From NCBI GenBank assembly GCA_934180065.1, contig CAKPRA010000008.1, forward strand, positions 344-64,343: 64,000 bases of DNA. The letters are read 5' to 3'. The stretch is from an uncultured Clostridia bacterium (GTDB taxonomy: Bacteria; Bacillota; Clostridia; TANB77; CAG-508). Made by a program: the position numbers and the translations under genes. The notes under the pieces were generated by a model. The model was not told the DNA's origin. It was given only the letters and a program-made list of their open reading frames with translations, and searched no databases. Positions 1,378-40,957 of this stretch are shown here, piece by piece (position 1 is the stretch's first letter; the number at the start of each line of letters is the position of its first letter).

Positions 1378-2361
1378 ATGGATGAAAAATTTATTTTTCA
1401 GATTGCAAAACATAACCTTGAAATTGCTAACAGTAAAATTTCTGGGCTTATTGAAAATTATAATGCAATTGTTAATGATATGTTAAAAGATGAAAATCAA
1501 TCAATGGATGTGTATAGAACATTATTGATTTACTCAATGAAAAAAGCATATACTTTAGAAAAAATGCAACCTAAGTCAGATAATATTAGATGGTCTAGAG
1601 AAAGAAATTCAAAGGCATTTGAAATTCGTAAAAGAACTTTAAAAAATTATGAAAAAATTTTAAAAACGAGTTTTGACATAAATGAGAGCTCTTATGATGA
1701 AGTGAAAAAAATTACAGACCAAATATATCAGCAGGAGAAAGCTATATGGGAAAAAGGAGAAATGCATAAATTAGTTGAAAGATTTAAAGCTGATATTACT
1801 GAGAAGTATTGTGAAGACAATCAATATGTATATACGGTTTTGCAAAACGAACCAGAAAGTAAAGTATTGAAAAAAACTCAAAATCGAGAAAATCAATATT
1901 TGAATGAAATAGTAGATGCACATTTTGCCATAGCTGACTATGAGGGGATGATTGGCTATATTTGTAGGGCTGTAAATGGTAATGGTTTTCATGGAAGCAT
2001 TAGAGATGGAAAAAAATGTTGTGAATATCCGGAAAATCCATTTGCAGATTCTGACAAACAAGATGATGCAAATGCAGTCAAACTAAAAAAAGGAGTTAGT
2101 GTATTGCTAACTGATGCTAGTGTATATGAACCAGTTTTTGATTTTGCTATAGATAGATATGGAAAAATTGGATTTAGATATGATGGTGAGATGATTGCAA
2201 GATTTACAGATGAGTTAAATTATGAAAAAATTGAAGTGAATTATATAGATAAGTCAATTATGAAAAAGATTAATTTTAGTGTGAGAACAAGTGATGATAG
2301 GGTAATTGACTTAAATGGGTTATATTCTAATAGTCAAGAACAAGATAATCTAGAAAGATAA
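1378..2361 (+). CDS. Hypothetical protein (328 aa) inside the insertion
   Basis: ATG at 1378 preceded by aggaggtg. The listed 1282 start overlaps the upstream gene and is unlikely. No family recognised. Confidence 0.6.
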   Translation: MDEKFIFQIAKHNLEIANSKISGLIENYNAIVNDMLKDENQSMDVYRTLLIYSMKKAYTLEKMQPKSDNIRWSRERNSKAFEIRKRTLKNYEKILKTSFDINESSYDEVKKITDQIYQQEKAIWEKGEMHKLVERFKADITEKYCEDNQYVYTVLQNEPESKVLKKTQNRENQYLNEIVDAHFAIADYEGMIGYICRAVNGNGFHGSIRDGKKCCEYPENPFADSDKQDDANAVKLKKGVSVLLTDASVYEPVFDFAIDRYGKIGFRYDGEMIARFTDELNYEKIEVNYIDKSIMKKINFSVRTSDDRVIDLNGLYSNSQEQDNLER

Positions 2362-2556
2362 TAACTTTTTATTTAAATTGGAAATTATAGTAAATGGAGT
2401 ATGAAGAATATTACTTAACAGATACCTTGAACAAAATGAAAAAATAGACGTAGATCATACAATAATATATAATATTGCCGAAAAATTGTATAAGTATTTT
2501 CACAATGATTTTATCTAGATTAATTATACTAAATATTTTTAGAGGAGGCATATTTT

Positions 2557-2895
2557 ATGAGTTTAACAATAAGAAAAATGCAAAAATACTTAAAAGAAAA
2601 GTACAAGATAACAAAACCTGAAGACATTAAAAATACGCAAAGGTATTTTTTAAAATTAATAGAGGAAGTCGGTGAATTAGCAGAAGCTATTAGAAAAGAG
2701 CAGAGAATGGAAGGTAATAATATTAAAGGAACTATAGAAGAAGAATTATCGGATGTTTTATATTATGTTTTAATGATTGCAAATACATATGATATAGATT
2801 TAGAGGATTGCTTTAGAATGAAAGAAGAATTAAATCGTGTTAGATATGGACATAAATTAAGAATAGATGATATACTAGAAGATGATGAAAAATGA
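2557..2895 (+). CDS. MazG-like nucleoside triphosphate pyrophosphohydrolase (small all-alpha NTP-PPase)
   Basis: RBS gaggagg. EEVGELAEAIRK ... EELSDVLYYVLMIANTYDIDLEDCF matches the MazG EExxE/D signature pattern. Confidence 0.7.
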   Translation: MSLTIRKMQKYLKEKYKITKPEDIKNTQRYFLKLIEEVGELAEAIRKEQRMEGNNIKGTIEEELSDVLYYVLMIANTYDIDLEDCFRMKEELNRVRYGHKLRIDDILEDDEK

Positions 2896-2952
2896 CAAGA
2901 GGATTAATGATGGCATCATGCTCAGGAGTGCAAATGGCAAGAAATCTGGCTG
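2891..2952. repeat. Direct repeat copy B (displaced 3' end of the oxidoreductase gene, reads ...ARNLAEKINK*)
   Basis: Near-identical to 1255-1316. The MazG stop codon (2893-2895) lies inside it. Confidence 0.9.
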
Positions 2953-3047
2953 AGAAGATAAATAAGTAATTAACATCTCCTCATATGTTTGTAGAAAAGC
3001 TGCAACCTACAATTAATATAGGAATTACAAACTAATAATTTAAAGTG

Positions 3048-3096
3048 CAACATCAATGTTTAAAGTGCAATTTTTGCACTTTAAACATTGATGTTG
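3048..3096. promoter_or_regulatory. Perfect 23-bp inverted repeat (3-nt loop) overlapping the putative fic promoter; terminator and/or operator
   Basis: caacatcaatgtttaaagtgcaa ttt ttgcactttaaacattgatgttg. Extra half-site tttaaagtgcaa at 3039-3050. Candidate TTGATG(3088)-17 nt-TATAAT(3111) promoter. Confidence 0.6.
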
Positions 3097-3136
3097 TATT
3101 GAATAACTGATATAATATATATAGGAGGTATTTCGA

Positions 3137-4195
3137 ATGGATAAAAAAGAAGATTGGAATTTGGAATTATCTGAATATATTAAACAAGATGAATTAAATA
3201 AGGGAGAAAAGGCTAAAACATGGGGAGCAGCAATAGGTCTGCAAGATGTAGATGGATTAAAACCTTCAAAATATTTAATAAAAACTGCTAAGGAACATAT
3301 TGAAGGAACAATAAATATTGAAGAAGTTAAAAAAAGAATAGATGAATATTATGAAGTTCAAGGTAATAGAAAAAACTTTGAAAACAAAACTGAAGAGGCT
3401 GATAAAGTTGCGGTAAGAATTACAGAAATATTAAGTGAGAAGGCATTTAGTTTTTCTCCAGCAGAGCTGTTAAATATTCATAAAAGATTGTTTGAAAATT
3501 TATTTGATGGTGCAGGAATATATAGAAACTATAATTTTACTAAAAAGGAATGGGTACTAAATGGAGATACTGTAATATATGCACCATTTGATACTATAAA
3601 AGAAACATTAGAATATGACTTTGAGCAAGAAAAAAATTTTTCATATAAGGGATTAAGTTTAGATGAATCTATAAAACACCTATGTAAATTCACATCAAAT
3701 ATTTGGCAGGTACATCCATTTTGTGAAGGAAATACAAGAACAACAGCAGTATTTATGATAAAATATTTAAGAACTTTTGGATTTTGCATTAATGATGAGG
3801 TATTTGCTGAAAATTCTTGGTATTTTAGAAACTCATTAGTAAGAGCTAATTATAAAAACTTTGAAAAAAAAATATTTGAAGATTTTTCATTTTTAGAAAA
3901 GTTTTTTTATAATCTCCTTGCAAATACAAACAATGATTTGAAAAATAGATATACACATATAGATAATTTTAAAAGCACAGAGAATAACAATTTAAAAGAC
4001 AATAATTATACTTTAGAAGAGCAAGCAATTATAAATATATTAAAAATAAATTCTATGATAACTCAAGAAGAAATATCAAAACAAATTAATAAATCTTTAA
4101 GGACAGTAAAAAAATATATGGCAGAAATGCAAGAAAAAGGGTTAATAGAGAGAAAAAATGGTAAAAAAAACGGTGAGTGGATAGTGAGAAAATAA
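3137..4195 (+). CDS. Fic/DOC family protein with C-terminal winged-helix domain
   Basis: RBS aggagg. Fic motif variant HPFCEGNTRTTAVF. C-terminal LEEQAIINILK...ISKQINKSLRTVKKYMAEMQEKGLIER looks like a wHTH. Confidence 0.8.
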   Translation: MDKKEDWNLELSEYIKQDELNKGEKAKTWGAAIGLQDVDGLKPSKYLIKTAKEHIEGTINIEEVKKRIDEYYEVQGNRKNFENKTEEADKVAVRITEILSEKAFSFSPAELLNIHKRLFENLFDGAGIYRNYNFTKKEWVLNGDTVIYAPFDTIKETLEYDFEQEKNFSYKGLSLDESIKHLCKFTSNIWQVHPFCEGNTRTTAVFMIKYLRTFGFCINDEVFAENSWYFRNSLVRANYKNFEKKIFEDFSFLEKFFYNLLANTNNDLKNRYTHIDNFKSTENNNLKDNNYTLEEQAIINILKINSMITQEEISKQINKSLRTVKKYMAEMQEKGLIERKNGKKNGEWIVRK

Positions 4196-8474: not shown

Positions 8475-8550
8475 GCTTGCATAGCTCAGTAGGCAGAGCA
8501 CTACCTTGGTAAGGTAGAGGTCACCAGTTCGATTCTGGTTGTAAGCTCCA
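8475..8550 (+). tRNA. tRNA-Thr (anticodon GGU)
   Basis: Cloverleaf read by eye. Acceptor gcttgca/tgtaagc. Anticodon stem ctacc/ggtag with loop ttGGTaa. T-arm accag-ttcgatt-ctggt. Encoded CCA. Confidence 0.85.
8534..8550. repeat. attL core (tRNA 3' end)
   Basis: Identical to 40998-41014. Confidence 0.85.
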
Positions 8551-8707: not shown

Positions 8708-8749
8708 TGCATTCAAATTGCATTCAAAAATAAAAAAAATGCATTCAAA
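8708..8749. repeat. Arm-type repeat block (3x tgcattcaaa), putative integrase arm sites, attL side
   Basis: tgcattcaaa at 8708, 8719 and 8740. Block 8708-8741 is near-identical to 40923-40957. Confidence 0.6.
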
Positions 8750-8751
8750 AA

Positions 8752-10191
8752 TTATTTTTTGAATGCAATTATCTTTCCAGAATAATTATCATTATTAGAA
8801 GCGGAAGAGTTAGGGTTTAATAACATATTATCATCAGCTCTTTTAACCTTAGCTTTTTGAATTTCTTTCTCAACGAAAGAATCTAAAATATGTGCATATG
8901 TTTCCTGAAGTACTTCGACACTGGTTCCAACAAGAGCAGAGATTGCATAAATATTCATACCATTTTCGATTAGACGCGTAACACAAGTATGTTTAGTCAT
9001 ATGAGTATTACAACCATCTTTTAAATCCAATTTAATTCCAGCTTGGCGACAAATTCTTTTAAAAATACAATTAAAAGATGAATGCGAAATATAACCGCCG
9101 TCTTTTCTACAAAACAATAAATGCTCTGTATTATTAATATTGTTTTTAGATACTTCAAGTTGTTCGTTTAAGAAGTTTTCAAAATCATTCTCATCAAAAA
9201 GAATATCAAAAGGTATGAATCTAATATCCTTTTTTCCATATTTTCTTGCCTTTTTACCAGTTTTTGTATGTTTACCAACAATAATCTTATTTTCCTTGTT
9301 TTTAGTTAATGTTTTAGATACAATTACTTTCTTTCCAATAGTGTCAATATCTGTATCTCTATTTAAAGCACAGATTTCTCCAATTCTCATAGATGTAGCC
9401 AAAGCAAACTTTATTATATTTTTTACGGTCAGCGAATCAATTGCAGATTTGCTATTGCATACCAAAGTCGACTGATGCATATTAATGTAGTCTAATAATT
9501 GTTGCTCCTCGTCACTAGAAAAAGCTATAACATCTTTTTTATCCTTTAGGCTTATAAAAGTATTCCTCTTAATTTCATCAAATAATTCTTCAATCTCACA
9601 GCTTTTACAGGCACTTTTTAGTATATCATAGACCTTTTCAATTTGACTTTGGCTTGCTTCAATATCAACAAAATAGGTAAAAACAGATTTTATATCATCT
9701 TCTGTAAGTACACGCATCTTTTTAAATGCAATAGGATGTTTTTCGATTGCTGTAATAGTTGCAATATTTCTTATATAAGAGTTTTCTTCTGTAATATTAG
9801 AATTAAGTTTATTTTCCTCAATGTATCGCATTGTTTTAGAAAGAGTATAATCACCGTGTTTTATTTTATCCTTTTTTTGCAATTCTTCCGTTTTTTCTTC
9901 TTTTTTCAATTTAGCTTCTTTTTTATTTTTAGCACTACCAGTAGATTTTCGCTCTCCATTTAATGTTATTTGTGTTGCAGAAGTTTTGTAGCAATAAAAC
10001 CTATCACAATATTTTAGACAATCTGTACATTGCTTACATTTGTCGCATTTTATATATCCAGTTCTATTATCACATTTGCTTCTATCTAAACAAGCTTTAC
10101 AAGTAGAGCACTCTTCTGCTAAAAAAGAATCCCTTTTATTTCTTTTTATTGTTTCATAAATTGTTCCTTCGCCATTTGCACGTCGTTTCAT
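8752..10191 (-). CDS. int: Tyrosine recombinase/phage integrase with a Cys-rich N-terminal insertion
   Basis: True start MKRRANGEGTIY at 10191 (ggagg RBS). C-terminal catalytic region ...HMTKHTCVTRLIENG...LQETYAHIL (H-x-x-R ... Y). The listed 10329 start is an unlikely extension. Confidence 0.85.
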   Translation of the reverse strand: MKRRANGEGTIYETIKRNKRDSFLAEECSTCKACLDRSKCDNRTGYIKCDKCKQCTDCLKYCDRFYCYKTSATQITLNGERKSTGSAKNKKEAKLKKEEKTEELQKKDKIKHGDYTLSKTMRYIEENKLNSNITEENSYIRNIATITAIEKHPIAFKKMRVLTEDDIKSVFTYFVDIEASQSQIEKVYDILKSACKSCEIEELFDEIKRNTFISLKDKKDVIAFSSDEEQQLLDYINMHQSTLVCNSKSAIDSLTVKNIIKFALATSMRIGEICALNRDTDIDTIGKKVIVSKTLTKNKENKIIVGKHTKTGKKARKYGKKDIRFIPFDILFDENDFENFLNEQLEVSKNNINNTEHLLFCRKDGGYISHSSFNCIFKRICRQAGIKLDLKDGCNTHMTKHTCVTRLIENGMNIYAISALVGTSVEVLQETYAHILDSFVEKEIQKAKVKRADDNMLLNPNSSASNNDNYSGKIIAFKK

Positions 10192-10358
10192 AAAAAATAC
10201 CTCCATTTTCAAAAAAATATGTTTAATAAACACTTGAAAATAAAGGTATATATAGTTTATAATATATATATCAATACTTTCAAAAGTGTTGTGATTCGGA
10301 TATTGTGTTGAGCCGCGAAACTTATTCACAATGTCCTTTTTTGTTTTTATTAAGTTTT

Positions 10359-34830: not shown

Positions 34831-36012
34831 CTATTGTTTAGGTACTTCATAAGGAGTGTTATTCTTTAATACAGCATAAATGATATTGCACATTTTTCTT
34901 GAAACAGCACCAATACAAGTTTTATGATGTTTACCTTCAGCACGTTTCTTTTGATAATATGCTTTTAAAACAGGGTCAGTGTTAGAGGCAACCAAAGCCG
35001 CTTGAAATAGTGCTTTTCTCAAATATGGTGAACCACGTTTAGACATTACATTATGAGTACCTTCAAATTCACCAGATTGTGAAACAGTTGCATCAATACC
35101 AGCAAAGGCAACTAATTTTGAAGGGTTGTCAAAACGTTTAATGTCGCCTAATTCACTGATAATTACAGCACCAAGAACTGGACCAATACCAGGAATAGAA
35201 GTAATAGGAGAATTGATTTTTTCCATTAATTCTTTGATTTTGGTTTCACATTCTTTGACTTGATTATCAATAAATTGAATTTGTTCAATTAATAATTTTA
35301 ATTGAAATTTAAAACTTTCTTTAGAGAAAGTAATGCCAAATGAATTTTTTGCAGAATTGATTAGTTTTTCAGCAGTACTTTGACCAACTTTCTTTCTGCT
35401 TAGAGCTTCAAGAGTTTCTGTTAAATCTTCAACAGAAAGTTCTTCAAAATCAGAAGGAGAAGAATAGTCTAAAAGTAGCTGTTTAGAGGTAGTTCCAAAA
35501 GTGTTAGAAAAGATAGTTTGATATTCAGGAAATACTTGATCAAGAACGCAAATAACTTTACGTTTTAGGTCACCAGCAGATTGAATAAGGTAGTTACGCA
35601 TACGACAAATATTTCTAAGAGAATATAAATCTTCATTAGAAAGAGTTGTTTTAACAAAATCACCATAACGAATTAAATCTGCAATTAAAACAGAATCAAT
35701 TGTATCATTTTTACGTTTACGAATTTCAGCGCCCTTACGCCATCCGTCAGTTTGAATAGGGTTAATTACATGAATGCAATGAAAATCATAATCATAAAGA
35801 AATGAGTAAATTGAAAGCCAATAATGACCAGTTGCTTCCATACCTACTGTAATATCAGAGAAATCAGAATATTTCTTGATTATTTCAAGAAGAGATTTAC
35901 CACCTTCGGTAGTGTTAGAAAAAGAGAAACCTTTAAAAATAGTTTTTCCTTTTTCATCCATTAAGGAAGCAACATGAGTATTTTTAGCAATATCAATACC
36001 TAAATAAAACAT
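34831..36012 (-). CDS. IS110-family transposase/recombinase
   Basis: MFYLGIDIAKNTHVA... (DEDD N-terminus) and C-terminal SIPGIGPVLGAVIISELGDIKRF (Transposase_20 HhH). ATG 36012 with gaggtg RBS. Confidence 0.85.
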   Translation of the reverse strand: MFYLGIDIAKNTHVASLMDEKGKTIFKGFSFSNTTEGGKSLLEIIKKYSDFSDITVGMEATGHYWLSIYSFLYDYDFHCIHVINPIQTDGWRKGAEIRKRKNDTIDSVLIADLIRYGDFVKTTLSNEDLYSLRNICRMRNYLIQSAGDLKRKVICVLDQVFPEYQTIFSNTFGTTSKQLLLDYSSPSDFEELSVEDLTETLEALSRKKVGQSTAEKLINSAKNSFGITFSKESFKFQLKLLIEQIQFIDNQVKECETKIKELMEKINSPITSIPGIGPVLGAVIISELGDIKRFDNPSKLVAFAGIDATVSQSGEFEGTHNVMSKRGSPYLRKALFQAALVASNTDPVLKAYYQKKRAEGKHHKTCIGAVSRKMCNIIYAVLKNNTPYEVPKQ

Positions 36013-36029
36013 AATAAAACACCTCAAAT

Positions 36030-36312: not shown

Positions 36313-36645
36313 ATGTCAGAAAATTACATTGAAATTTTTTCTGCAATAGAGAAATTCGGAGGGCTAGTAATATTAGCCTTCCTTTTTGTTTACGTTTTTT
36401 TTACAGATAGAAAGAAACAAGAGCAAAAAGATATTGAATTAAAAGAAGAAAAGAAAAATAATAATGCAGTATTATCAGAATTATCTGCATCAAACAGAAA
36501 TATAGCTGAAAGCTTAAATTTATTAAAGACAAGTATAGATAATAACACAACTGAGTTCAAACAGCATGATGAAAGGGCAATACAGCAGTTTAATGTTTTA
36601 AATGAAAAGTTAATAAAAATAAATGAAAAATTAACAAAAAAATAG
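36313..36645 (+). CDS. BhlA/UviB-family holin-like protein
   Basis: N-terminal single TM (FGGLVILAFLFVYVFF) then charged coiled coil. Directly upstream of the lysin. Confidence 0.6.
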   Translation: MSENYIEIFSAIEKFGGLVILAFLFVYVFFTDRKKQEQKDIELKEEKKNNNAVLSELSASNRNIAESLNLLKTSIDNNTTEFKQHDERAIQQFNVLNEKLIKINEKLTKK

Positions 36646-36660
36646 AAAGGTGGAATAAAG

Positions 36661-38109
36661 ATGAGAAATAGAATATTAATAATATTAGCAAGTATATTAG
36701 CAATAATAGCAACATTATGCAATATTTATATACCAAATCATAAAATCAATAACACAATACAAGAAACACAAAATATAATACAAGAAGAAATAAAAAATGA
36801 CAATGTAACAGTATCAGAATATGTCTATGGAGAGTCAAATGATGTAAAAGATGCAACAGTAAATAATAAAGAAGATATTTCTACAAAGCAATTACCAGAA
36901 ACAACAGAAACAGAGGAAAAAAATGTTGAAGAAGAAATAACAACGGAAATAGATGCTCAAATAGAGCAAGAAAATATAAGTTATAATGGAGCTAGTACAG
37001 GGAATGGACTAGCTCTTTTAGGTGCATATCAAGGACTAACATACTACTCACAGGCTGATTCACGATGGGCAAGTGTAATGTATTCTAGCAAAAATGATCC
37101 AACACAGACAATGAAAGCAAGTGCCTGTGGACCTACATCTGCCGCAATGGTTATTTCTAGCTCTAAAGGAAGTATATTACCAACAACATTAGCAAGTTTA
37201 GCAGTAAGTAATGGGTACAGAACTAAAAATTCAGGAACAGCATGGAGCTTCTATCCATTTATAGCAGATTACTTTGGATTTAGCGAGTATTACACAACAG
37301 ATAAATTAGAAACTGCATTAAATTATCTATCTCAAAAAAACAATGATGGAACTAGCAAATATTATATAATATGCAGTTGTGGTAGTGGTTTATTTACATA
37401 TAACGGACATTACATAGTATTAACAAGTTTAGATGAAAATACAATGCAGGTATATGATCCATATTTATACAATAACAAATTCGCAACAGCAACAAGAAAA
37501 AAGGCAAATGTAACTATATCTGGAAATTCTGTGTTTGTTAACAAAGAAGATTTCAGAAAATATGCAAACTATAAAAACTTTTGGATTTTTTCTAATGATA
37601 AAGGAAGCGGAAACTCTAATAATACTACTATAAATAATGTAACCAATTATACAAAATATGTTGCAACAAAAAGCTCAAGTTTAAATGTAAGAAAATCAGC
37701 AAGCATTAATTCAAGTAGGATTTATTCGCTTACGAAAGGAACTAAAGTGAATGTCACAGAAACTAGCGGAAATTGGTCAAAAATAAGCAGTCCGGTTACA
37801 GGTTGGGTAAATACAACATATCTTTCATCTACGCAAGTGTACTCAATAGTGAACGAAAGTTCAAAGAATTATAAAATTGGTACATATAAGGTAACAAGTA
37901 ATTTACATGTTAGAAGCGGTCCAGGAACAAATTATAAAATAAAAATATATAACCAATTAACAAATAATGCTAGAGCTCAAAATAAACGATTAGGAAATCA
38001 ATATTACAACGGATATTTAAAAGGTGTAATTTGTACAGTTACGCTGGTAAAAAGTAACTGGGGCAAAACTACATCTGGCTGGATCTGTTTAGATTATTGT
38101 AAAAAATAA
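36661..38109 (+). CDS. Cell-wall hydrolase/endolysin: N-terminal signal-anchor, C39-like cysteine peptidase domain, two SH3b domains
   Basis: TM ILIILASILAIIATL. ACGPTSAAMV ... NGHYIVLTS ... DP (Cys/His/Asp). Two SH3b-like repeats (LNVRKSASINS..., LHVRSGPGTNY...). Confidence 0.65.
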   Translation: MRNRILIILASILAIIATLCNIYIPNHKINNTIQETQNIIQEEIKNDNVTVSEYVYGESNDVKDATVNNKEDISTKQLPETTETEEKNVEEEITTEIDAQIEQENISYNGASTGNGLALLGAYQGLTYYSQADSRWASVMYSSKNDPTQTMKASACGPTSAAMVISSSKGSILPTTLASLAVSNGYRTKNSGTAWSFYPFIADYFGFSEYYTTDKLETALNYLSQKNNDGTSKYYIICSCGSGLFTYNGHYIVLTSLDENTMQVYDPYLYNNKFATATRKKANVTISGNSVFVNKEDFRKYANYKNFWIFSNDKGSGNSNNTTINNVTNYTKYVATKSSSLNVRKSASINSSRIYSLTKGTKVNVTETSGNWSKISSPVTGWVNTTYLSSTQVYSIVNESSKNYKIGTYKVTSNLHVRSGPGTNYKIKIYNQLTNNARAQNKRLGNQYYNGYLKGVICTVTLVKSNWGKTTSGWICLDYCKK

Positions 38110-38177
38110 AAAAATAATTATTTACTACATCAATTATATGTGTTAAAATGACTCAATAGAGTTACATATGTAATGGG

Positions 38178-39206
38178 GTGATAAATATACGAAAGAATAA
38201 TCCAGAATATAGAGATTTCATAAGAAGAAAGAATGAAAAAAATTTAAGACAACGTACTAAAAGAAAAAAAAGAAAATATACAACAAAAAAATATACAAGA
38301 AAAGATAAGAAACCTTATCGAATTTTCTCAGTGCCCAAAATATTTAGTATTCTAGAAAATCCAGAAGAAACTATAAGCTTTTTTAATAATGTAATAAAAG
38401 AAATCGAAAAAATATACTGTAATAACATATTATATATTTTTTTGATAGATATGGAGGACGTTCAAAAGATTACAGGTGATGCTTTAATGTATTTTTTGAC
38501 AGTAATGAGAAACTATAGAGTAAGAGGTTGTAAAGGAATATATTGGAGAGGCAATTTTCCAAAAAATGAAGACATATCTAATTTTTTAAAATGCTCTGGA
38601 TTTTTAGGGTATTTAGATACACCTAAATGCAATTTGATGCATACTGATGAGAATATTCAGATTAAATCAGGTACTTTAATAGAACCAAATGTAATGAAAT
38701 CGATTTGTGATTTTACAAATGATAAATTGAATACTGATAGAAAATATAGTAGATTTTTAGCTAATATGTTAACTGAACTAATGACGAATACTAAAGATCA
38801 TGCATATAATAGTAATAATAAATTTGATTTTTGTTGGTATGTATTTGTTGAAAATTCACAAGATTATATCAGATATACATTCATGGATAATGGACTAGGT
38901 ATTCCAACAACTGTAAATAAACGATTAGGGGAAAAATTTAAGAAATATATAAATATTGATAAAGAATATAAATATATTGAATCATGCTTAAGTGGCAATT
39001 TTTTGAGAACCGAAACTAACCTTACTCATAGAGGAAAAGGATTGCCAGAAATAAACTCATATTATAATGATAATAAAATGTCCAATTTGACCATAATATC
39101 AAATCATGCATATTATCAAAAAAATAAATCAAAAGATTTGATAAACCATTTATTTGGAACGATAGTTTATTGGGAAATAGATAAAAATCAGAAAGGAGAT
39201 ATATAG
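38178..39206 (+). CDS. GHKL (histidine-kinase-like) ATPase domain protein with K/R-rich N-terminus
   Basis: GTG start. N-box-like ELMTNTKDHA, G1 FMDNGLGIP, G2 HRGKGLPE. N-terminal 50 aa are very basic, followed by a STAS-like-looking segment (LIDMEDVQKITGDALMYFL). Confidence 0.6.
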   Translation: MINIRKNNPEYRDFIRRKNEKNLRQRTKRKKRKYTTKKYTRKDKKPYRIFSVPKIFSILENPEETISFFNNVIKEIEKIYCNNILYIFLIDMEDVQKITGDALMYFLTVMRNYRVRGCKGIYWRGNFPKNEDISNFLKCSGFLGYLDTPKCNLMHTDENIQIKSGTLIEPNVMKSICDFTNDKLNTDRKYSRFLANMLTELMTNTKDHAYNSNNKFDFCWYVFVENSQDYIRYTFMDNGLGIPTTVNKRLGEKFKKYINIDKEYKYIESCLSGNFLRTETNLTHRGKGLPEINSYYNDNKMSNLTIISNHAYYQKNKSKDLINHLFGTIVYWEIDKNQKGDI

Positions 39207-39207
39207 A

Positions 39208-39540
39208 ATGAACATAAATATTTGTGAGGAATATACTGATGCACCAGGTGGGAGATACGAGAGCCAAGGTCCTTTTTCAGGGGAGAATTTCAGAAAAAAA
39301 ATATTGAAACCTAGATTTATTGAAGCTGCAAACAAAGAGGAAAAGTTATTTATTGACTTTGATGGTGGCTATGGTTACGGTTCATCTTTTTTAGAAGAAG
39401 CTTTTGGAGGCATAATAAGAGAGTTAAAAGAAGAAAAAAATTCAATTTATAAGAAAGCGTTGGATATAATAGAAATTAAATCGGATGATGAGCCAAATTT
39501 AATACAAAGAGTAAAAGACTATATGAAAAATGAAATCTAA
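39208..39540 (+). CDS. STAS-like (DUF4325-like) small protein
   Basis: Starts 1 nt after the upstream stop. ...KLFIDFDGGYGYGSSFLEEAFGGIIRE... resembles the DUF4325/STAS-like pattern. Confidence 0.5.
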   Translation: MNINICEEYTDAPGGRYESQGPFSGENFRKKILKPRFIEAANKEEKLFIDFDGGYGYGSSFLEEAFGGIIRELKEEKNSIYKKALDIIEIKSDDEPNLIQRVKDYMKNEI

Positions 39541-39555
39541 AGATAAGGAGATATT

Positions 39556-40107
39556 ATGGTAGTACAATTTGAAATAAAAAAGAAACACTGTTATATTGCA
39601 ATAATATTAATATTTTTTGTAATAATTTCATTTATCAATATCAAATGTTTAGAATATAATTGGAAAGAATATTTTAGGATGTCTTTACAAGAAATTCTAA
39701 CCATAATTGTAGGAAGTATTGTTATTTACTGTTTGACAAAAAAAGATAATAAAGAGTCAAAGTTATATGATAAAGTTGAAAAAAAATGTGAGGATTTAAA
39801 AGAATATATTAAAATTAACTTAAAGGATATTCCATCAATGCTAAAAGAAGAACGATTGCTTAAAATAAGATATATTTCTAATCAAGTATCTAATATAGAA
39901 AGATATATTGATAATATAGATAAGCTGTCTGAAAATTATAGAAAAATGAAAGAGGCGTTTGATAACTTGAATGATTTTATATCTGACAATATAGATCAAA
40001 GCAAAGAATATTTTGATAAAGATAATAGAAAGATAAAATTAGAAAGGTTGATTAACAATGTCGAACTTAGAATAGAAGATATAATAATTTTTACATATAT
40101 AAATTAA
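39556..40107 (+). CDS. Two-TM membrane protein with coiled-coil cytoplasmic tail
   Basis: RBS aaggagat. TMs CYIAIILIFFVIISFINI and ILTIIVGSIVIYCLT. Confidence 0.55.
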   Translation: MVVQFEIKKKHCYIAIILIFFVIISFINIKCLEYNWKEYFRMSLQEILTIIVGSIVIYCLTKKDNKESKLYDKVEKKCEDLKEYIKINLKDIPSMLKEERLLKIRYISNQVSNIERYIDNIDKLSENYRKMKEAFDNLNDFISDNIDQSKEYFDKDNRKIKLERLINNVELRIEDIIIFTYIN

Positions 40108-40164
40108 AGTATCATATCTCTATATATAGTTGGTTAAAAATTTTGATTATAGATGATAGAAGGA

Positions 40165-40208
40165 GACTAAATATTATTGAACATAAAAGAGTTCAATAAT
40201 ATTTAGTC
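40165..40208. terminator. Bidirectional terminator (perfect 18-bp inverted repeat)
   Basis: gactaaatattattgaac ataaaaga gttcaataatatttagtc, between convergent genes. Confidence 0.7.
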
Positions 40209-40535
40209 TTCTTTTTCTTGCATTTCAATATTAATTAATAAATCCAAAATCTGACTTATTTCCATAACTTCGGAGGAATTTAAGCCGTATTTCTCTACTC
40301 TCTTATACATTTCTTCCTTTAATTCCTCTATATCAAATTTGCTGAAAAATAAATCCTTAATATTAACATCTAATCCATTAGCAATACTATATAAAACAGC
40401 CAAGGTAGGATTTAATTTTATATTATTTTCCAATTTGTATAAATAAGCTCTAGAAATTCCCGTAATTTTTTCTAATTTATATAAAGTTATTCCCTTTTTC
40501 TTTCTAATATTTTTTATGTTAAAAACAATCATCAT
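40203..40535 (-). CDS. XRE-family HTH transcriptional regulator
   Basis: IRKKKGITLYKLEKITGISRAYLYKLENNIKLNPTLAVLYSIANGLDV, a classic HTH_3. Confidence 0.8.
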   Translation of the reverse strand: MMIVFNIKNIRKKKGITLYKLEKITGISRAYLYKLENNIKLNPTLAVLYSIANGLDVNIKDLFFSKFDIEELKEEMYKRVEKYGLNSSEVMEISQILDLLINIEMQEKED

Positions 40536-40922: not shown

Positions 40923-40957
40923 TGCATTCAAATTGCATTCAAAAAATAAAAAAAGTG
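40923..40957. repeat. Arm-type repeat block (2x tgcattcaaa), attR side
   Basis: Near-identical to 8708-8741. Confidence 0.6.

What the first reader, a model, noticed from the sequence alone, without database searches (positions are those of the whole stretch)
38121..40208. Unassigned three-gene accessory cassette at the prophage lysis/attR end: GHKL-ATPase-like + STAS/DUF4325-like + 2-TM protein
Seen in sequence: three tightly packed genes follow the endolysin. The gaps are 1 nt (39206/39208) and 15 nt with an RBS. A 342-aa protein carries GHKL ATPase boxes (ELMTNTKDHA, DNGLGIP, HRGKGLP) behind a very basic N-terminus and a STAS-like-looking segment. The 110-aa protein has a core (LFIDFDGGYGYGSSFLEEAFGG) resembling the STAS-like DUF4325 pattern. 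The 183-aa protein has two TM helices and a coiled coil. The cassette has its own promoter-like signal (TTTACT-17 nt-TAAAAT, 38121-38149) and a perfect 18-bp bidirectional terminator (40165-40208), so it can be expressed independently of the late operon. Established knowledge: the slot between lysis genes and att is a classic site for lysogenic-conversion and anti-phage morons. A GHKL kinase-like protein plus a STAS protein is the logic of partner-switching modules (RsbW/RsbV, SpoIIAB/SpoIIAA). Inference: this may be a prophage-borne partner-switching-type sensor coupled to a membrane effector (abortive infection or superinfection exclusion). I cannot match it to any named defence system from memory.
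Basis: partly seen in the sequence, partly recalled or inferred. Interest (0 to 1): 0.8.

Follow-up and report, generated by a model that had tools for sequence, protein, structure and literature searches.

The report
Kinase–STAS switch with membrane effector
A prophage in a gut Clostridium carries a widespread, always-linked three-gene cassette: a serine-kinase-like sensor, a small STAS-like substrate protein and a two-pass membrane protein; it is an undescribed membrane-effector relative of the recently characterised anti-phage VapKSC toxin–antitoxin system.

Summary
Three translationally coupled genes (A 38178-39206, B 39208-39540, C 39556-40107) follow the endolysin and end at a perfect 18-bp hairpin. 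The claimed promoter is no better than chance.

A is a basic tail plus a STAS-like domain plus a GHKL kinase. Its best PDB fold match is SpoIIAB. A shares phrog_3364 with VapK, the kinase of the anti-phage VapKSC system (Chambers et al., EMBO J 2026). B and VapS are both Pfam DUF4325, and B keeps an invariant Ser at the phospho-acceptor site. C has two N-terminal TM helices and a helical cytoplasmic domain, and sits where VapC (a PIN toxin) sits.

The A-B-C order is kept in 67 of 73 related loci across about eight phyla: in prophages, on a plasmid, and beside R-M and other defence genes. In two phages the trio lies directly after cI, the rexAB position. The kinase family has at least 1,000 clusters at 50% identity.

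This clade differs from VapKSC in three ways: a membrane protein replaces the nuclease, the kinase has a ~50-108-residue Lys/Arg-rich N-terminal tail, and the ssDNA-stacking aromatic is lost.

Most likely it is a kinase-gated membrane toxin giving abortive infection or exclusion. That function is inferred, not shown. It is a new variant of a known kind.

The parts
38121..38149 (+). Promoter-like site (TTTACT, 17 nt, TAAAAT, with TG); weak and possibly not functional
   Evidence: 9/12 match with an extended -10 TG. The region holds 43 such sites against 38.3 expected, so this is not above chance. No terminator separates it from the endolysin gene, so read-through from the late operon is equally possible.
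38178..39206 (+). Gene A: VapK/CapK-like serine-kinase sensor (342 aa)
   Evidence: phrog_3364 E 6.7e-32, the same family as VapK (E 3.6e-38). hhalign of the A family against VapK: E 3.3e-5 over 207 columns. AF2 model pLDDT 83.4, pTM 0.78. Foldseek top hits are SpoIIAB (1th8_A, E 2.8e-5, TM 0.71 normalised to target), then UsfX and RsbW.
38178..38315 (+). A residues 1-46: Lys/Arg-rich N-terminal tail (21 K+R, 4 D+E), predicted as a long helix (9-35)
   Evidence: The tail is present in every kinase sampled that is paired with a membrane protein (six A-family members, Leptospira plasmid, phage AS1). It is absent from VapK and the Deinococcus, Burkholderia, Marinitoga and LYGO9 kinases.
38316..38681 (+). 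A residues 47-168: STAS-like alpha/beta domain (invariant S57, N61, D101, M104, Y105, P128, S140, G141)
   Evidence: Alternating strand/helix pattern in the AF2 model. Weak Foldseek STAS hits (4xs5_A, E 0.24; SLC26 STAS domains). The equivalent VapK/CapK region is called STAS in PMC13373217. No sequence-profile similarity to the B family.
38685..39191 (+). A residues 170-338: GHKL (Bergerat-fold) kinase domain with N-box E200/N204, G1 D237-x-G239-x-G241-IP and G2-like R285-G-x-G288-L
   Evidence: E200, N204, D237, G239, G241 and G288 are invariant in 58/58 family members and kept in all VapK-type relatives (R285 55/58, G286 53/58). Pfam HATPase_c is sub-threshold (E 1e-3). Fold match to SpoIIAB.
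39193..39198 (+). AAGGAG ribosome-binding site for B, inside the 3' end of A (translational coupling)
   Evidence: In other loci A and B overlap by 4-11 nt.
39208..39540 (+). Gene B: VapS-like STAS-like (DUF4325) substrate and switch protein (110 aa)
   Evidence: Pfam DUF4325 E 4.4e-10; VapS is DUF4325 at E 2.7e-17. AF2 pLDDT 96.8. It is the most conserved of the three genes (mean pairwise identity 49%).
39382..39387 (+). Codons for Ser59-Ser60 of B: candidate phospho-acceptor at the N-cap of helix 59-75
   Evidence: S60 is invariant in 65/65 members, position 59 is S or T in 51/65, and F61 is invariant. VapS S48, the proposed phospho-acceptor (supported by S48E/S48A mutants), aligns with position 59. 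Secondary structure.
39545..39550 (+). AAGGAG ribosome-binding site for C
39556..40107 (+). Gene C: 2-TM membrane protein with a helical cytoplasmic domain (183 aa); putative effector in the position VapC holds in VapKSC
   Evidence: It has no Pfam, PADLOC or NCBIfam family. A relative is found after B in 67/73 loci. It evolves fastest (mean identity 23%).
39595..39735 (+). C residues 14-60: two transmembrane helices (14-32, 42-60) joined by a 9-residue loop. The KKK at residues 8-10 suggests an N-in, C-in topology
   Evidence: Kyte-Doolittle scan, sequence. The topology is inferred from the positive-inside rule.
40165..40208 (.). Perfect 18-bp inverted repeat (8-nt loop) followed by a T-run. 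It is a shared terminator for the trio and the convergent HTH/Spo0E-like gene

Best explanation
The cassette is a three-component, kinase-gated membrane toxin system. It is a distinct clade of the CapK/VapK-CapS/VapS kinase-STAS switch.

Proposed mechanism:
1. In an unperturbed lysogen, the STAS-like protein B binds the cytoplasmic helical domain of the 2-TM protein C and keeps it inactive.
2. An infection-associated cue activates the GHKL serine kinase A. The cue is probably a nucleic acid or nucleoprotein, read through the kinase's STAS-GHKL groove and/or its Lys/Arg-rich N-terminal tail.
3. A phosphorylates B on the Ser59/Ser60 dyad at the N-cap of helix 2.
4. Phospho-B lets go of C.
5. C oligomerises and permeabilises or depolarises the membrane, stopping growth of the infected cell. 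The result is abortive infection or superinfection exclusion that benefits the prophage.

Shown here: the architecture, homology of A and B to VapK and VapS, conservation of the catalytic and acceptor residues, obligate linkage of the three genes, and their mobile-element and defence contexts.

Inferred: the activating signal, the B-C interaction and its direction, the toxicity of C, and any phage-resistance phenotype.
For: Homology and fold:
- A and VapK both match phrog_3364 over their full length. hhalign gives E 3.3e-5. The A-family HMM finds the Deinococcus kinase, whose operon ends in a PIN gene, at E 2e-11.
- A's fold is closest to the Ser kinases SpoIIAB, UsfX and RsbW.
- N-box and G1 residues and G288 are invariant in 58/58 members; R285 55/58, G286 53/58.
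- B and VapS are both DUF4325. S60 is invariant in 65/65 members, and VapS S48 aligns with position 59. The dyad lies at the helix N-cap, as in SpoIIAA, CapS and VapS (PMC13373217).

Linkage:
- A-B-C colinear, overlapping or tightly spaced, in 67/73 loci from Clostridia, Bacilli, Tenericutes, Endomicrobia, Planctomycetes, Bacteroidales, Fusobacteria, Spirochaetes and Deltaproteobacteria.
- Divergence of the three genes is correlated (r 0.78-0.86, Mantel p <= 5e-4).
- There is no conserved fourth gene.

Context:
- After holin and lysin in several prophages. Next to type III R-M, Mrr, DUF4238, Fic, AbiH, SIR2 and PD-(D/E)xK genes.
- On a Leptospira plasmid beside MNT/HepT.
- Directly after the CI repressor in Marinobacter phage AS1 and Francisella phage KIRK, which is the lambda rexAB position.

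Membrane effector:
- C has two TM helices in 52/63 members.
- Distant loci keep an unrelated membrane protein in third place (L073, AS1_39).

Precedent: in VapKSC, VapS neutralises VapC, the phosphomimetic S48E releases it, and the operon gives about 2 logs of protection (PMC13373217).
Against: - There is no experimental or multimer-model evidence that B binds C, that C is toxic, or that A phosphorylates B.
- PADLOC v2 has no model for A or B, and only about 5-10% of immediate neighbours are known or candidate defence genes.
- B has no significant Foldseek match to canonical STAS structures (best E 0.18). The direct B-family/VapS profile alignment is weak (E 0.017).
- The aromatic residue needed for ssDNA activation in CapK (W68) and for protection in VapK (F54) is not conserved here (K97, a variable column), so the trigger cannot simply be carried over.
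- C has no conserved polar or catalytic signature and no family assignment.
- Expression in the lysogen is unproven, because the promoter-like site is at the chance level.
Confidence: 0.55

Rival explanations
1. The cassette is a toxin-antitoxin or addiction-type stress module. It stabilises the prophage, plasmid or island, or responds to a general stress such as DNA damage. It has the same kinase-STAS-toxin logic but no dedicated anti-phage role.
For: VapKSC is itself TA-like, and the authors stress the blurred line between stress response and defence. The trio occurs on a plasmid next to the MNT/HepT TA pair and next to recombinases, Mob and relaxase genes. Only a minority of neighbours are defence genes.
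Against: Its position after cI in two phages and after lysis genes in many prophages is typical of lysogen-protecting morons. VapKSC does protect against a phage. The two roles are not mutually exclusive.
Confidence: 0.15
2. The cassette is a lysis-control module of the phage itself. C would be a holin- or antiholin-like membrane protein whose activity is timed by phosphorylation of B by A.
For: In the window the trio directly follows the holin and endolysin genes. Several related loci have Phage_holin_4_1, Glyco_hydro_25, LysM, Peptidase_M23 or C39_2+SH3 lysins immediately upstream. Streptococcus phage LYGO9 has a kinase-STAS pair right after its lysin. C is a small 2-TM protein.
Against: The same trio sits outside prophages, beside R-M, Mrr, DUF4238 and UvrD genes, on a plasmid, and in the immunity region after cI. 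C matches no holin family in Pfam or PHROGs, and its ~120-residue cytoplasmic domain is atypical of holins. The window already has a holin candidate at 36313-36645.
Confidence: 0.1
3. Signal flow is reversed. C would be a membrane-anchored sensor or scaffold that detects, for example, envelope perturbation during phage DNA entry and controls the kinase. The output would be phospho-B or the basic tail of A acting on another target.
For: STAS proteins serve as sensor scaffolds in stressosomes (established knowledge; RsbS and stressosome entries appear among weak fold hits). C lacks any recognisable toxin signature. The A clade has lost the ssDNA aromatic and gained a basic tail.
Against: No conserved fourth gene could serve as an effector. 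In the homologous VapKSC operon the third gene is the effector. Distant loci swap in unrelated membrane proteins at the third position, a pattern typical of interchangeable effectors.
Confidence: 0.1
4. The cassette is a classical partner-switching transcription switch. A would act as an anti-sigma factor sequestering a sigma factor, and B as its antagonist.
For: A's best structural matches are the anti-sigma factors SpoIIAB, UsfX and RsbW in complex with sigma factors or antagonists.
Against: No sigma factor or PP2C phosphatase gene is conserved next to the trio in 63 loci. The closest characterised homologues (VapK, CapK) do not act on sigma factors. The obligate membrane partner is unexplained by this model.
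Confidence: 0.05

Closest known systems
VapKSC (VapK kinase, VapS STAS antitoxin, VapC PIN toxin), Escherichia sp. E4736; Chambers et al., EMBO J 2026 (PMC13373217)
   Same: Both are three-gene operons in the same order: a STAS+GHKL kinase, then a ~110-aa DUF4325 STAS-like protein, then an effector. A and VapK share phrog_3364 and all the kinase motifs. B and VapS share Pfam DUF4325 and a Ser just before an invariant Phe at the helix-2 N-cap. Both occur on mobile elements and near defence genes.
   Different: The third gene is a 2-TM helical membrane protein, not a PIN nuclease. The kinase carries a ~50-108-residue Lys/Arg-rich N-terminal tail that VapK lacks. The aromatic equivalent to VapK F54 / CapK W68 is not conserved. 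A and VapK are only about 20% identical. B has clade-specific motifs (PGGRY, GGYGY, SFLEEAFGG).
CapK-CapS transcriptional regulators of CBASS, Bub and Thoeris operons (same paper)
   Same: Both have a GHKL Ser kinase with an internal STAS domain that phosphorylates a conserved Ser of a downstream STAS protein.
   Different: CapK has an N-terminal HTH, and CapS has a C-terminal wHTH and represses a downstream operon. B has no DNA-binding domain, and no immune operon follows it, only the single membrane protein C.
SpoIIAB/SpoIIAA and RsbW/RsbV partner-switching modules of Firmicutes
   Same: The kinase domain of A is structurally closest to SpoIIAB (E 2.8e-5, TM 0.71 normalised to target). The candidate acceptor Ser sits at the helix-2 N-cap, as SpoIIAA Ser58 does.
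   Different: There is no sigma factor or PP2C phosphatase partner. A is twice the size, with extra STAS-like and basic regions. B is not detectably similar to canonical STAS structures by Foldseek.
Lambda RexA/RexB (functional analogy only)
   Same: Both are encoded by a prophage and combine a cytoplasmic sensor with a membrane protein. In phages AS1 and KIRK the trio lies directly downstream of cI, as rexAB does.
   Different: No homology was tested or is claimed. Rex has two components and no kinase or STAS switch (established knowledge).

Membership tests
VapKSC / CapKS kinase-STAS switch (Chambers et al. 2026) | Kinase with an internal STAS domain followed by a GHKL domain | tested here: met
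   phrog_3364 over the full length for both A (E 6.7e-32) and VapK (E 3.6e-38). hhalign E 3.3e-5. The AF2 model shows two domains. The GHKL fold matches SpoIIAB. Direct structural support for the STAS part alone is weak (E 0.24).
VapKSC / CapKS kinase-STAS switch (Chambers et al. 2026) | Conserved catalytic Asn of the N-box (CapK N218) and ATP-binding G1/G2 motifs | tested here: met
   N204, E200, D237, G239, G241 and G288 are invariant in 58/58 family members and aligned with VapK N160, E156, D190, G192, G194 and G239; R285 (VapK R236) is kept in 55/58.
VapKSC / CapKS kinase-STAS switch (Chambers et al. 2026) | Small STAS (DUF4325) protein encoded immediately downstream of the kinase | tested here: met
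   B is DUF4325 at E 4.4e-10 and VapS at E 2.7e-17. B follows A in 69/73 loci.
VapKSC / CapKS kinase-STAS switch (Chambers et al. 2026) | Absolutely conserved Ser/Thr on the second helix of the STAS protein (VapS S48, CapS S54) | tested here: met
   S60 in 65/65 members, S/T59 in 51/65, and VapS S48 aligns with position 59. The N-cap of helix 59-75 is seen in the AF2 model. Which of the two Ser residues is the acceptor is unresolved.
VapKSC / CapKS kinase-STAS switch (Chambers et al. 2026) | Aromatic residue in the STAS-GHKL groove required for ssDNA activation (CapK W68, VapK F54) | tested here: not met
   The column is F or W in VapK and in the Deinococcus, Burkholderia, Marinitoga and LYGO9 kinases. 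It is K, N, E, Y, T or S in the A family (window K97). The alignment in this region has moderate confidence.
VapKSC / CapKS kinase-STAS switch (Chambers et al. 2026) | Third gene encodes a VapC-like PIN nuclease toxin (VapKSC specifically) | tested here: not met
   C has no PIN match and is a 2-TM helical protein. A canonical PIN version exists elsewhere, on the Deinococcus plasmid.
VapKSC / CapKS kinase-STAS switch (Chambers et al. 2026) | Kinase phosphorylates the STAS protein, the phospho-form releases the effector, and the system protects against phage | not testable with these tools
   This needs Phos-tag or mass spectrometry, toxicity rescue and plaque assays.
Classical partner-switching (SpoIIAB/SpoIIAA, RsbW/RsbV) | SpoIIAB-like GHKL Ser-kinase fold | tested here: met
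   Foldseek 1th8_A E 2.8e-5, TM 0.71 normalised to target. 1l0o, 1til, 1tid, 8ih8 and 6m37 also match.
Classical partner-switching (SpoIIAB/SpoIIAA, RsbW/RsbV) | Antagonist with the canonical STAS fold | tested here: inconclusive
   The B model is confident (pLDDT 96.8), but its best PDB match has E 0.18, and RsfB and RsbS appear only at E of about 2. Pfam calls DUF4325 'STAS-like'.
Classical partner-switching (SpoIIAB/SpoIIAA, RsbW/RsbV) | Cognate sigma factor and PP2C phosphatase in the module | tested here: not met
   None appears among 220 flanking genes of 63 loci or in the window.
Defence systems catalogued in PADLOC-DB v2.0.0 | HMM match of any component to a catalogued system or candidate | tested here: not met
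   There are no hits for A or B at E <= 1, and only noise for C.
Holins / SLATT-type 2-TM effectors | Profile match of C to a holin or SLATT family | tested here: not met
   There is no holin or SLATT family among the Pfam, PHROGs or NCBIfam hits for C. The best hit is phrog_4038, of unknown function, at E 0.0019.

The most novel reading that the evidence does not exclude
The trio defines a large, previously undescribed family of prophage-, plasmid- and island-borne immune systems. A GHKL serine kinase has exchanged the ssDNA-stacking aromatic of CapK/VapK for a long Lys/Arg-rich tail and so senses a different infection cue. It uses phosphorylation of a STAS-like protein to unleash a membrane-depolarising 2-TM effector. 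This would be a phospho-switch counterpart of lambda Rex, and the first membrane-effector branch of the kinase-STAS immune switch.
Probability: 0.4. Interest if true: 0.72.

Novelty: new variant of a known kind. Interest (0 to 1): 0.62.

Why it matters
The kinase-STAS switch (CapKS/VapKSC) was described only in 2026, with a transcription factor or a PIN nuclease as its output. This cassette suggests that the same sensor-switch pair has been coupled to a membrane protein.

That form is common. The kinase family has at least 1,000 clusters at 50% identity at E <= 1e-30 and spans about eight phyla. It is frequent in gut Firmicutes prophages.

If it is validated, three things would follow:
- It would extend the modularity principle of bacterial immunity to a new sensor-effector combination.
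- It would give a tractable system for asking how serine phosphorylation gates a membrane toxin.
- It would pose a clear question about the signal, because the residue required for ssDNA activation is replaced by a basic tail.

It also gives a likely function to two 'hypothetical' gene sets sitting in the rexAB position of phages AS1 and KIRK.

Tried and rejected
- Sequence searches of PDB chains with A, B and the profiles A1 and A4 found nothing meaningful. The VapS-VapC entry 9Z7O is evidently not in the copies searched.
- Foldseek of the B model found no significant match, so B's STAS assignment rests on Pfam and VapS, not on fold search.
- hhalign of A's N-terminal domain against the B family showed no relationship (E 0.1 over 10 columns).
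- PADLOC v2 had no model for A or B.
- A single-sequence search with C found only 3 relatives in 5.8 billion proteins. C relatives had to be found by iterative search inside the fetched loci.
- A scan of viral contigs with VapK found nothing.
- Literature searches for a membrane-effector version returned only the Chambers et al. paper or nothing. The terms tried were 'partner-switching' + 'phage defense'; 'STAS-like' + prophage + transmembrane; 'STAS domain' + 'anti-phage'; 'anti-sigma factor antagonist' + 'abortive infection'; and 'VapKSC'.
- The independent promoter was rejected as evidence because such sites occur at the chance rate.
- An anti-sigma reading was considered and set aside because no sigma factor or PP2C gene is linked.
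Full report
**1. What is in the sequence**

The three ORFs exist exactly as described.

| Gene | Coordinates | Length | Notes |
|---|---|---|---|
| A | 38178-39206 | 342 aa | GTG start |
| B | 39208-39540 | 110 aa | 1-nt gap after A; AAGGAG at 39193-39198 |
| C | 39556-40107 | 183 aa | 15-nt gap after B; AAGGAG at 39545-39550 |

A perfect 18-bp inverted repeat (40165-40182 / 40191-40208) followed by a T-run closes the cassette. It also serves the convergent gene at 40203-40535.

The promoter-like site at 38121-38149 scores 9/12 with a TG. Such sites are no more frequent here than in shuffled sequence (43 found, 38.3 expected), and no terminator separates the cassette from the endolysin gene. 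Independent expression is therefore possible but not shown.

The surroundings are a prophage:
- integrase 8752-10329, large terminase, portal, major head protein, tape measure, tail and fibre genes;
- an IS transposase at 34831-36027;
- a BhlA-like holin candidate at 36313-36645;
- a Peptidase_C39_2+SH3 endolysin at 36661-38109.

An exact 23-bp direct repeat at 8708-8730 and 40923-40945 is a good candidate att core. If so, the trio lies inside the prophage near its right end, with an HTH/Spo0E-like gene and a 59-codon ORF between it and attR. The trio's GC content (24.7%; C is 20.8%) is a little below that of the prophage (28.4%). The nearest database relative is Clostridium sp. CAG:492 (97-100% identity).

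**2. The three proteins**

*Protein A.* It matches Pfam HATPase_c only below threshold, but it matches phrog_3364 over its full length (E 6.7e-32). Across the family, E200/N204 of the N-box, the G1 motif D237-x-G239-x-G241-I-P and G288 of the G2-like motif are invariant; R285 is kept in 55/58 members and G286 in 53/58.

An AlphaFold2 model (pLDDT 83.4, pTM 0.78) shows three parts:
- a long basic helix (residues 9-35; 21 K+R in the first 46 residues);
- an alternating strand/helix domain (about 47-165);
- a GHKL domain (about 170-335).

Foldseek against the PDB puts the partner-switching serine kinases first: SpoIIAB (1th8_A, E 2.8e-5, TM 0.71 normalised to the target), then CheA P4, UsfX and RsbW. 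STAS proteins match only weakly (E 0.24 and worse).

*Protein B.* It is Pfam DUF4325, annotated 'STAS-like' (E 4.4e-10, above the cut-off). Its model is very confident (pLDDT 96.8). Ser59-Ser60 sit at the N-cap of helix 59-75, after strand 47-50 and a Gly-rich loop. S60 and F61 are invariant in 65/65 family members, and position 59 is Ser or Thr in 51/65. Foldseek finds no significant PDB neighbour for B (best E 0.18).

*Protein C.* It has no family in Pfam, NCBIfam or PADLOC. It has two hydrophobic helices at 14-32 and 42-60, and 52 of 63 family members have two. A ~120-residue charged helical region follows. A KKK motif before TM1 suggests that both termini are cytoplasmic; this is an inference from the positive-inside rule.

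**3. The trio is a conserved unit**

Pattern-plus-tblastn scans returned 56 genome loci and 13 viral contigs encoding relatives of A, and two look-ups by exact protein added four more. An iterative HMM search of all six-frame ORFs of these 73 loci found A in 71, B in 69 and C in 67.

In 67 of the 73 loci the order is A-B-C on one strand. The genes are mostly overlapping or a few nucleotides apart, with junctions ranging from a 59-nt overlap to a 33-nt gap and one 130-nt outlier. Most of the exceptions are contig ends or truncated genes.

The hosts span Clostridia, Bacilli/Erysipelotrichia, Tenericutes, Endomicrobia, Planctomycetes, Bacteroidales, Fusobacteria, Spirochaetes and Deltaproteobacteria.

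Pairwise-identity matrices of the three proteins across 52 distinct loci are strongly correlated (r 0.78-0.86, Mantel p <= 5e-4). Mean identities are 49% for B, 35% for A and 23% for C. The genes therefore travel and diverge together, and C evolves fastest. This shows linkage, not physical interaction.

An exhaustive profile search of 1.84 billion representatives found 4,068 A-like clusters at E <= 1e-3 and 1,013 at E <= 1e-30. The count at E <= 1e-3 probably also includes VapK- and CapK-type kinases.

**4. Context**

There is no conserved fourth gene. The flanks are a mix of two kinds of gene:
- Mobile-element genes: serine and tyrosine recombinases, Mob and relaxase genes, TnpV, small terminases, holins and lysins.
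- Conflict genes: Fic, AbiH, YhcG-type PD-(D/E)xK nucleases, DpnII, a type III R-M system, Mrr, DUF4238, SIR2, TOTE primase, and PADLOC candidates PDC-S02/S04/S05/S23 and HEC-06.

Only about 5-10% of the immediate neighbours hit PADLOC models, so the association with defence islands is real but modest.

Three annotated cases are informative:
- In Marinobacter phage AS1 the order is CI repressor (Phage_CI_repr, E 1.4e-7), then an A-like gene, then DUF4325, then a 159-aa protein with an N-terminal TM helix.
- Francisella phage KIRK has the same order after its CI gene. This is the position rexAB holds in lambda (established knowledge).
- A Leptospira interrogans plasmid carries the trio next to an MNT/HepT pair.

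**5. The known relative**

Chambers et al. (EMBO J 2026, PMC13373217) describe two systems.

- **CapK-CapS.** CapK is an HTH-STAS-GHKL kinase. ssDNA activates it, and it phosphorylates Ser54 of the STAS-wHTH repressor CapS.
- **VapKSC.** VapK is a STAS-GHKL kinase. VapS is a STAS protein with a C-terminal helix, acts as the antitoxin, and has a conserved S48. VapC is a PIN toxin. The operon gives about 2 logs of protection against phage Bas42, and this is lost in the VapC D28A, VapS S48A and VapK F54A mutants.

I took the VapK and VapS sequences from the paper's deposited AlphaFold3 model and tested the relationship directly.

- VapK matches phrog_3364 over its full length (E 3.6e-38), as A does.
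- hhalign of the A family against VapK gives E 3.3e-5 over 207 columns. BLASTP gives E 0.007 at 20% identity.
- The A-family HMM finds a Deinococcus kinase, whose operon ends in a PIN gene, at E 2e-11.
- VapS is DUF4325 (E 2.7e-17), like B.
- The direct B-family/VapS profile alignment is weak (E 0.017) but in register, and VapS S48 falls on B position 59.

A and B are therefore distant homologues of VapK and VapS. The paper contains no mention of a transmembrane partner or of DUF4325, and further literature searches found no description of a membrane-effector version. An older survey had noted PIN genes 'transcriptionally coupled to DUF4325'.

**6. How this clade differs**

A joint alignment of 65 kinases shows three correlated differences.

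| Feature | VapK-type kinases | Kinases paired with a membrane protein |
|---|---|---|
| Third gene | PIN nuclease, small proteins, or none | 2-TM helical protein |
| N-terminus before the STAS domain | 10-21 residues, 0-4 K+R | ~50-108 residues, 11-24 K+R |
| Column of VapK F54 / CapK W68 | F or W | K, N, E, Y, T or S (window K97) |

- The VapK-type set is VapK plus the Deinococcus, Burkholderia phage, Marinitoga phage and Streptococcus phage LYGO9 kinases.
- The membrane-partnered set is the A family, the Leptospira plasmid, phage AS1 and locus L073; N-termini were tabulated for eight of these kinases.
- F54 and W68 are required for protection and for ssDNA activation respectively.

Other relatives show how modular the third position is:
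- PIN in Deinococcus.
- Small non-membrane proteins, or nothing, in LYGO9, MPV1 and vB_E188.
- In the very distant viral locus L073, a 225-aa protein unrelated to C with hydrophobic segments at both ends.

**7. Mechanism and confidence**

By homology, architecture and gene order, the most likely reading is a kinase-gated membrane toxin. B holds C inactive, an infection cue activates A, A phosphorylates the Ser59/Ser60 dyad of B, and C is released to damage the membrane. The result would be abortive infection or superinfection exclusion (confidence about 0.55).

The steps stand as follows.
- Shown: the fold, motif and homology assignments, the obligate linkage, and the contexts.
- Carried over from VapKSC: the kinase-substrate relation and the antitoxin role of the STAS protein.
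- Inferred only: the B-C interaction, the toxicity of C, the nature of the trigger and the phenotype.

The loss of the aromatic and the gain of a basic tail argue that the trigger may differ from the ssDNA mechanism of CapK.

Four rival readings are listed separately with their refutation tests: a TA or stress module without a defence role, a lysis-timing module, reversed signal flow with C as the sensor, and a classical anti-sigma switch.

**8. Verdict**

The cassette is not a member of VapKSC in the strict sense, because two defining features were tested and not met: the PIN toxin and the ssDNA aromatic. It is a new variant of the same kind of system, and it is abundant and experimentally untouched.

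Noticed in passing
window 8708-8730 and 40923-40945: An exact 23-bp direct repeat, TGCATTCAAATTGCATTCAAAAA (about 35 bp with 2-3 mismatches), lies just outside the integrase gene and just before ychF. It is a candidate attL/attR core giving a prophage of about 32.2 kb. tRNA-Thr (8475-8550) lies about 160 bp outside it.
   Followed up: partly
window 40203-40535 (- strand): This gene lies inside the candidate prophage boundary and encodes a fusion of an HTH_3 domain (E 3e-13) and a Spo0E-like domain (E 1.2e-11). A Spo0E-type phosphatase domain carried by a phage could affect the host sporulation phosphorelay. The same gene type follows the trio in a second, 71%-identical locus.
   Followed up: no
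window 34831-36027 (- strand): An IS110-type transposase (phrog_2199, E 1.4e-94) is inserted between the tail-fibre gene and the holin and lysin genes. It may separate the lysis genes and the trio from the late operon.
   Followed up: no
window 36661-38109: The endolysin (Peptidase_C39_2 + SH3_3) starts with a hydrophobic segment (MRNRILIILASILAIIATLCNIY). This suggests a signal-anchor or SAR-type export rather than a purely holin-dependent lysin.
   Followed up: no
L078 (Streptococcus phage LYGO9, JX409894.1) 2111-3910; also the Javan39, Javan132 and Javan140 hits: Streptococcal prophages carry a VapK-type kinase and a STAS-like protein directly after the lysin. These have no basic tail and keep the aromatic. 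They are followed by a CsbD-like protein and a 62-aa protein rather than a PIN or membrane protein, so this may be another effector variant or a two-gene regulator.
   Followed up: partly
L073 (IMGVR_UViG_3300048079_000130) 515-2783: This very distant version has a 420-aa kinase with a 108-residue N-terminal extension, a 111-aa DUF4325-like protein, and a 225-aa protein unrelated to C with hydrophobic segments at both ends.
   Followed up: partly
PHROGs phrog_5816 (441-position profile): B and VapS match the C-terminal ~100 positions of this profile, and VapK weakly matches positions 191-284. Some phages may therefore encode the kinase and the STAS-like protein as a single fused polypeptide.
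   Followed up: no
L001 7021-15592; L002 5867-15361: The non-prophage copies of the trio sit in apparent defence islands. L001 has Fic, integrase fragments and a type III-like R-M (N6_N4_Mtase + ResIII/SWI2_SNF2). L002 has three DUF4238 genes, Mrr_cat, a Macro domain and a UvrD-like helicase with zinc ribbons.
   Followed up: no
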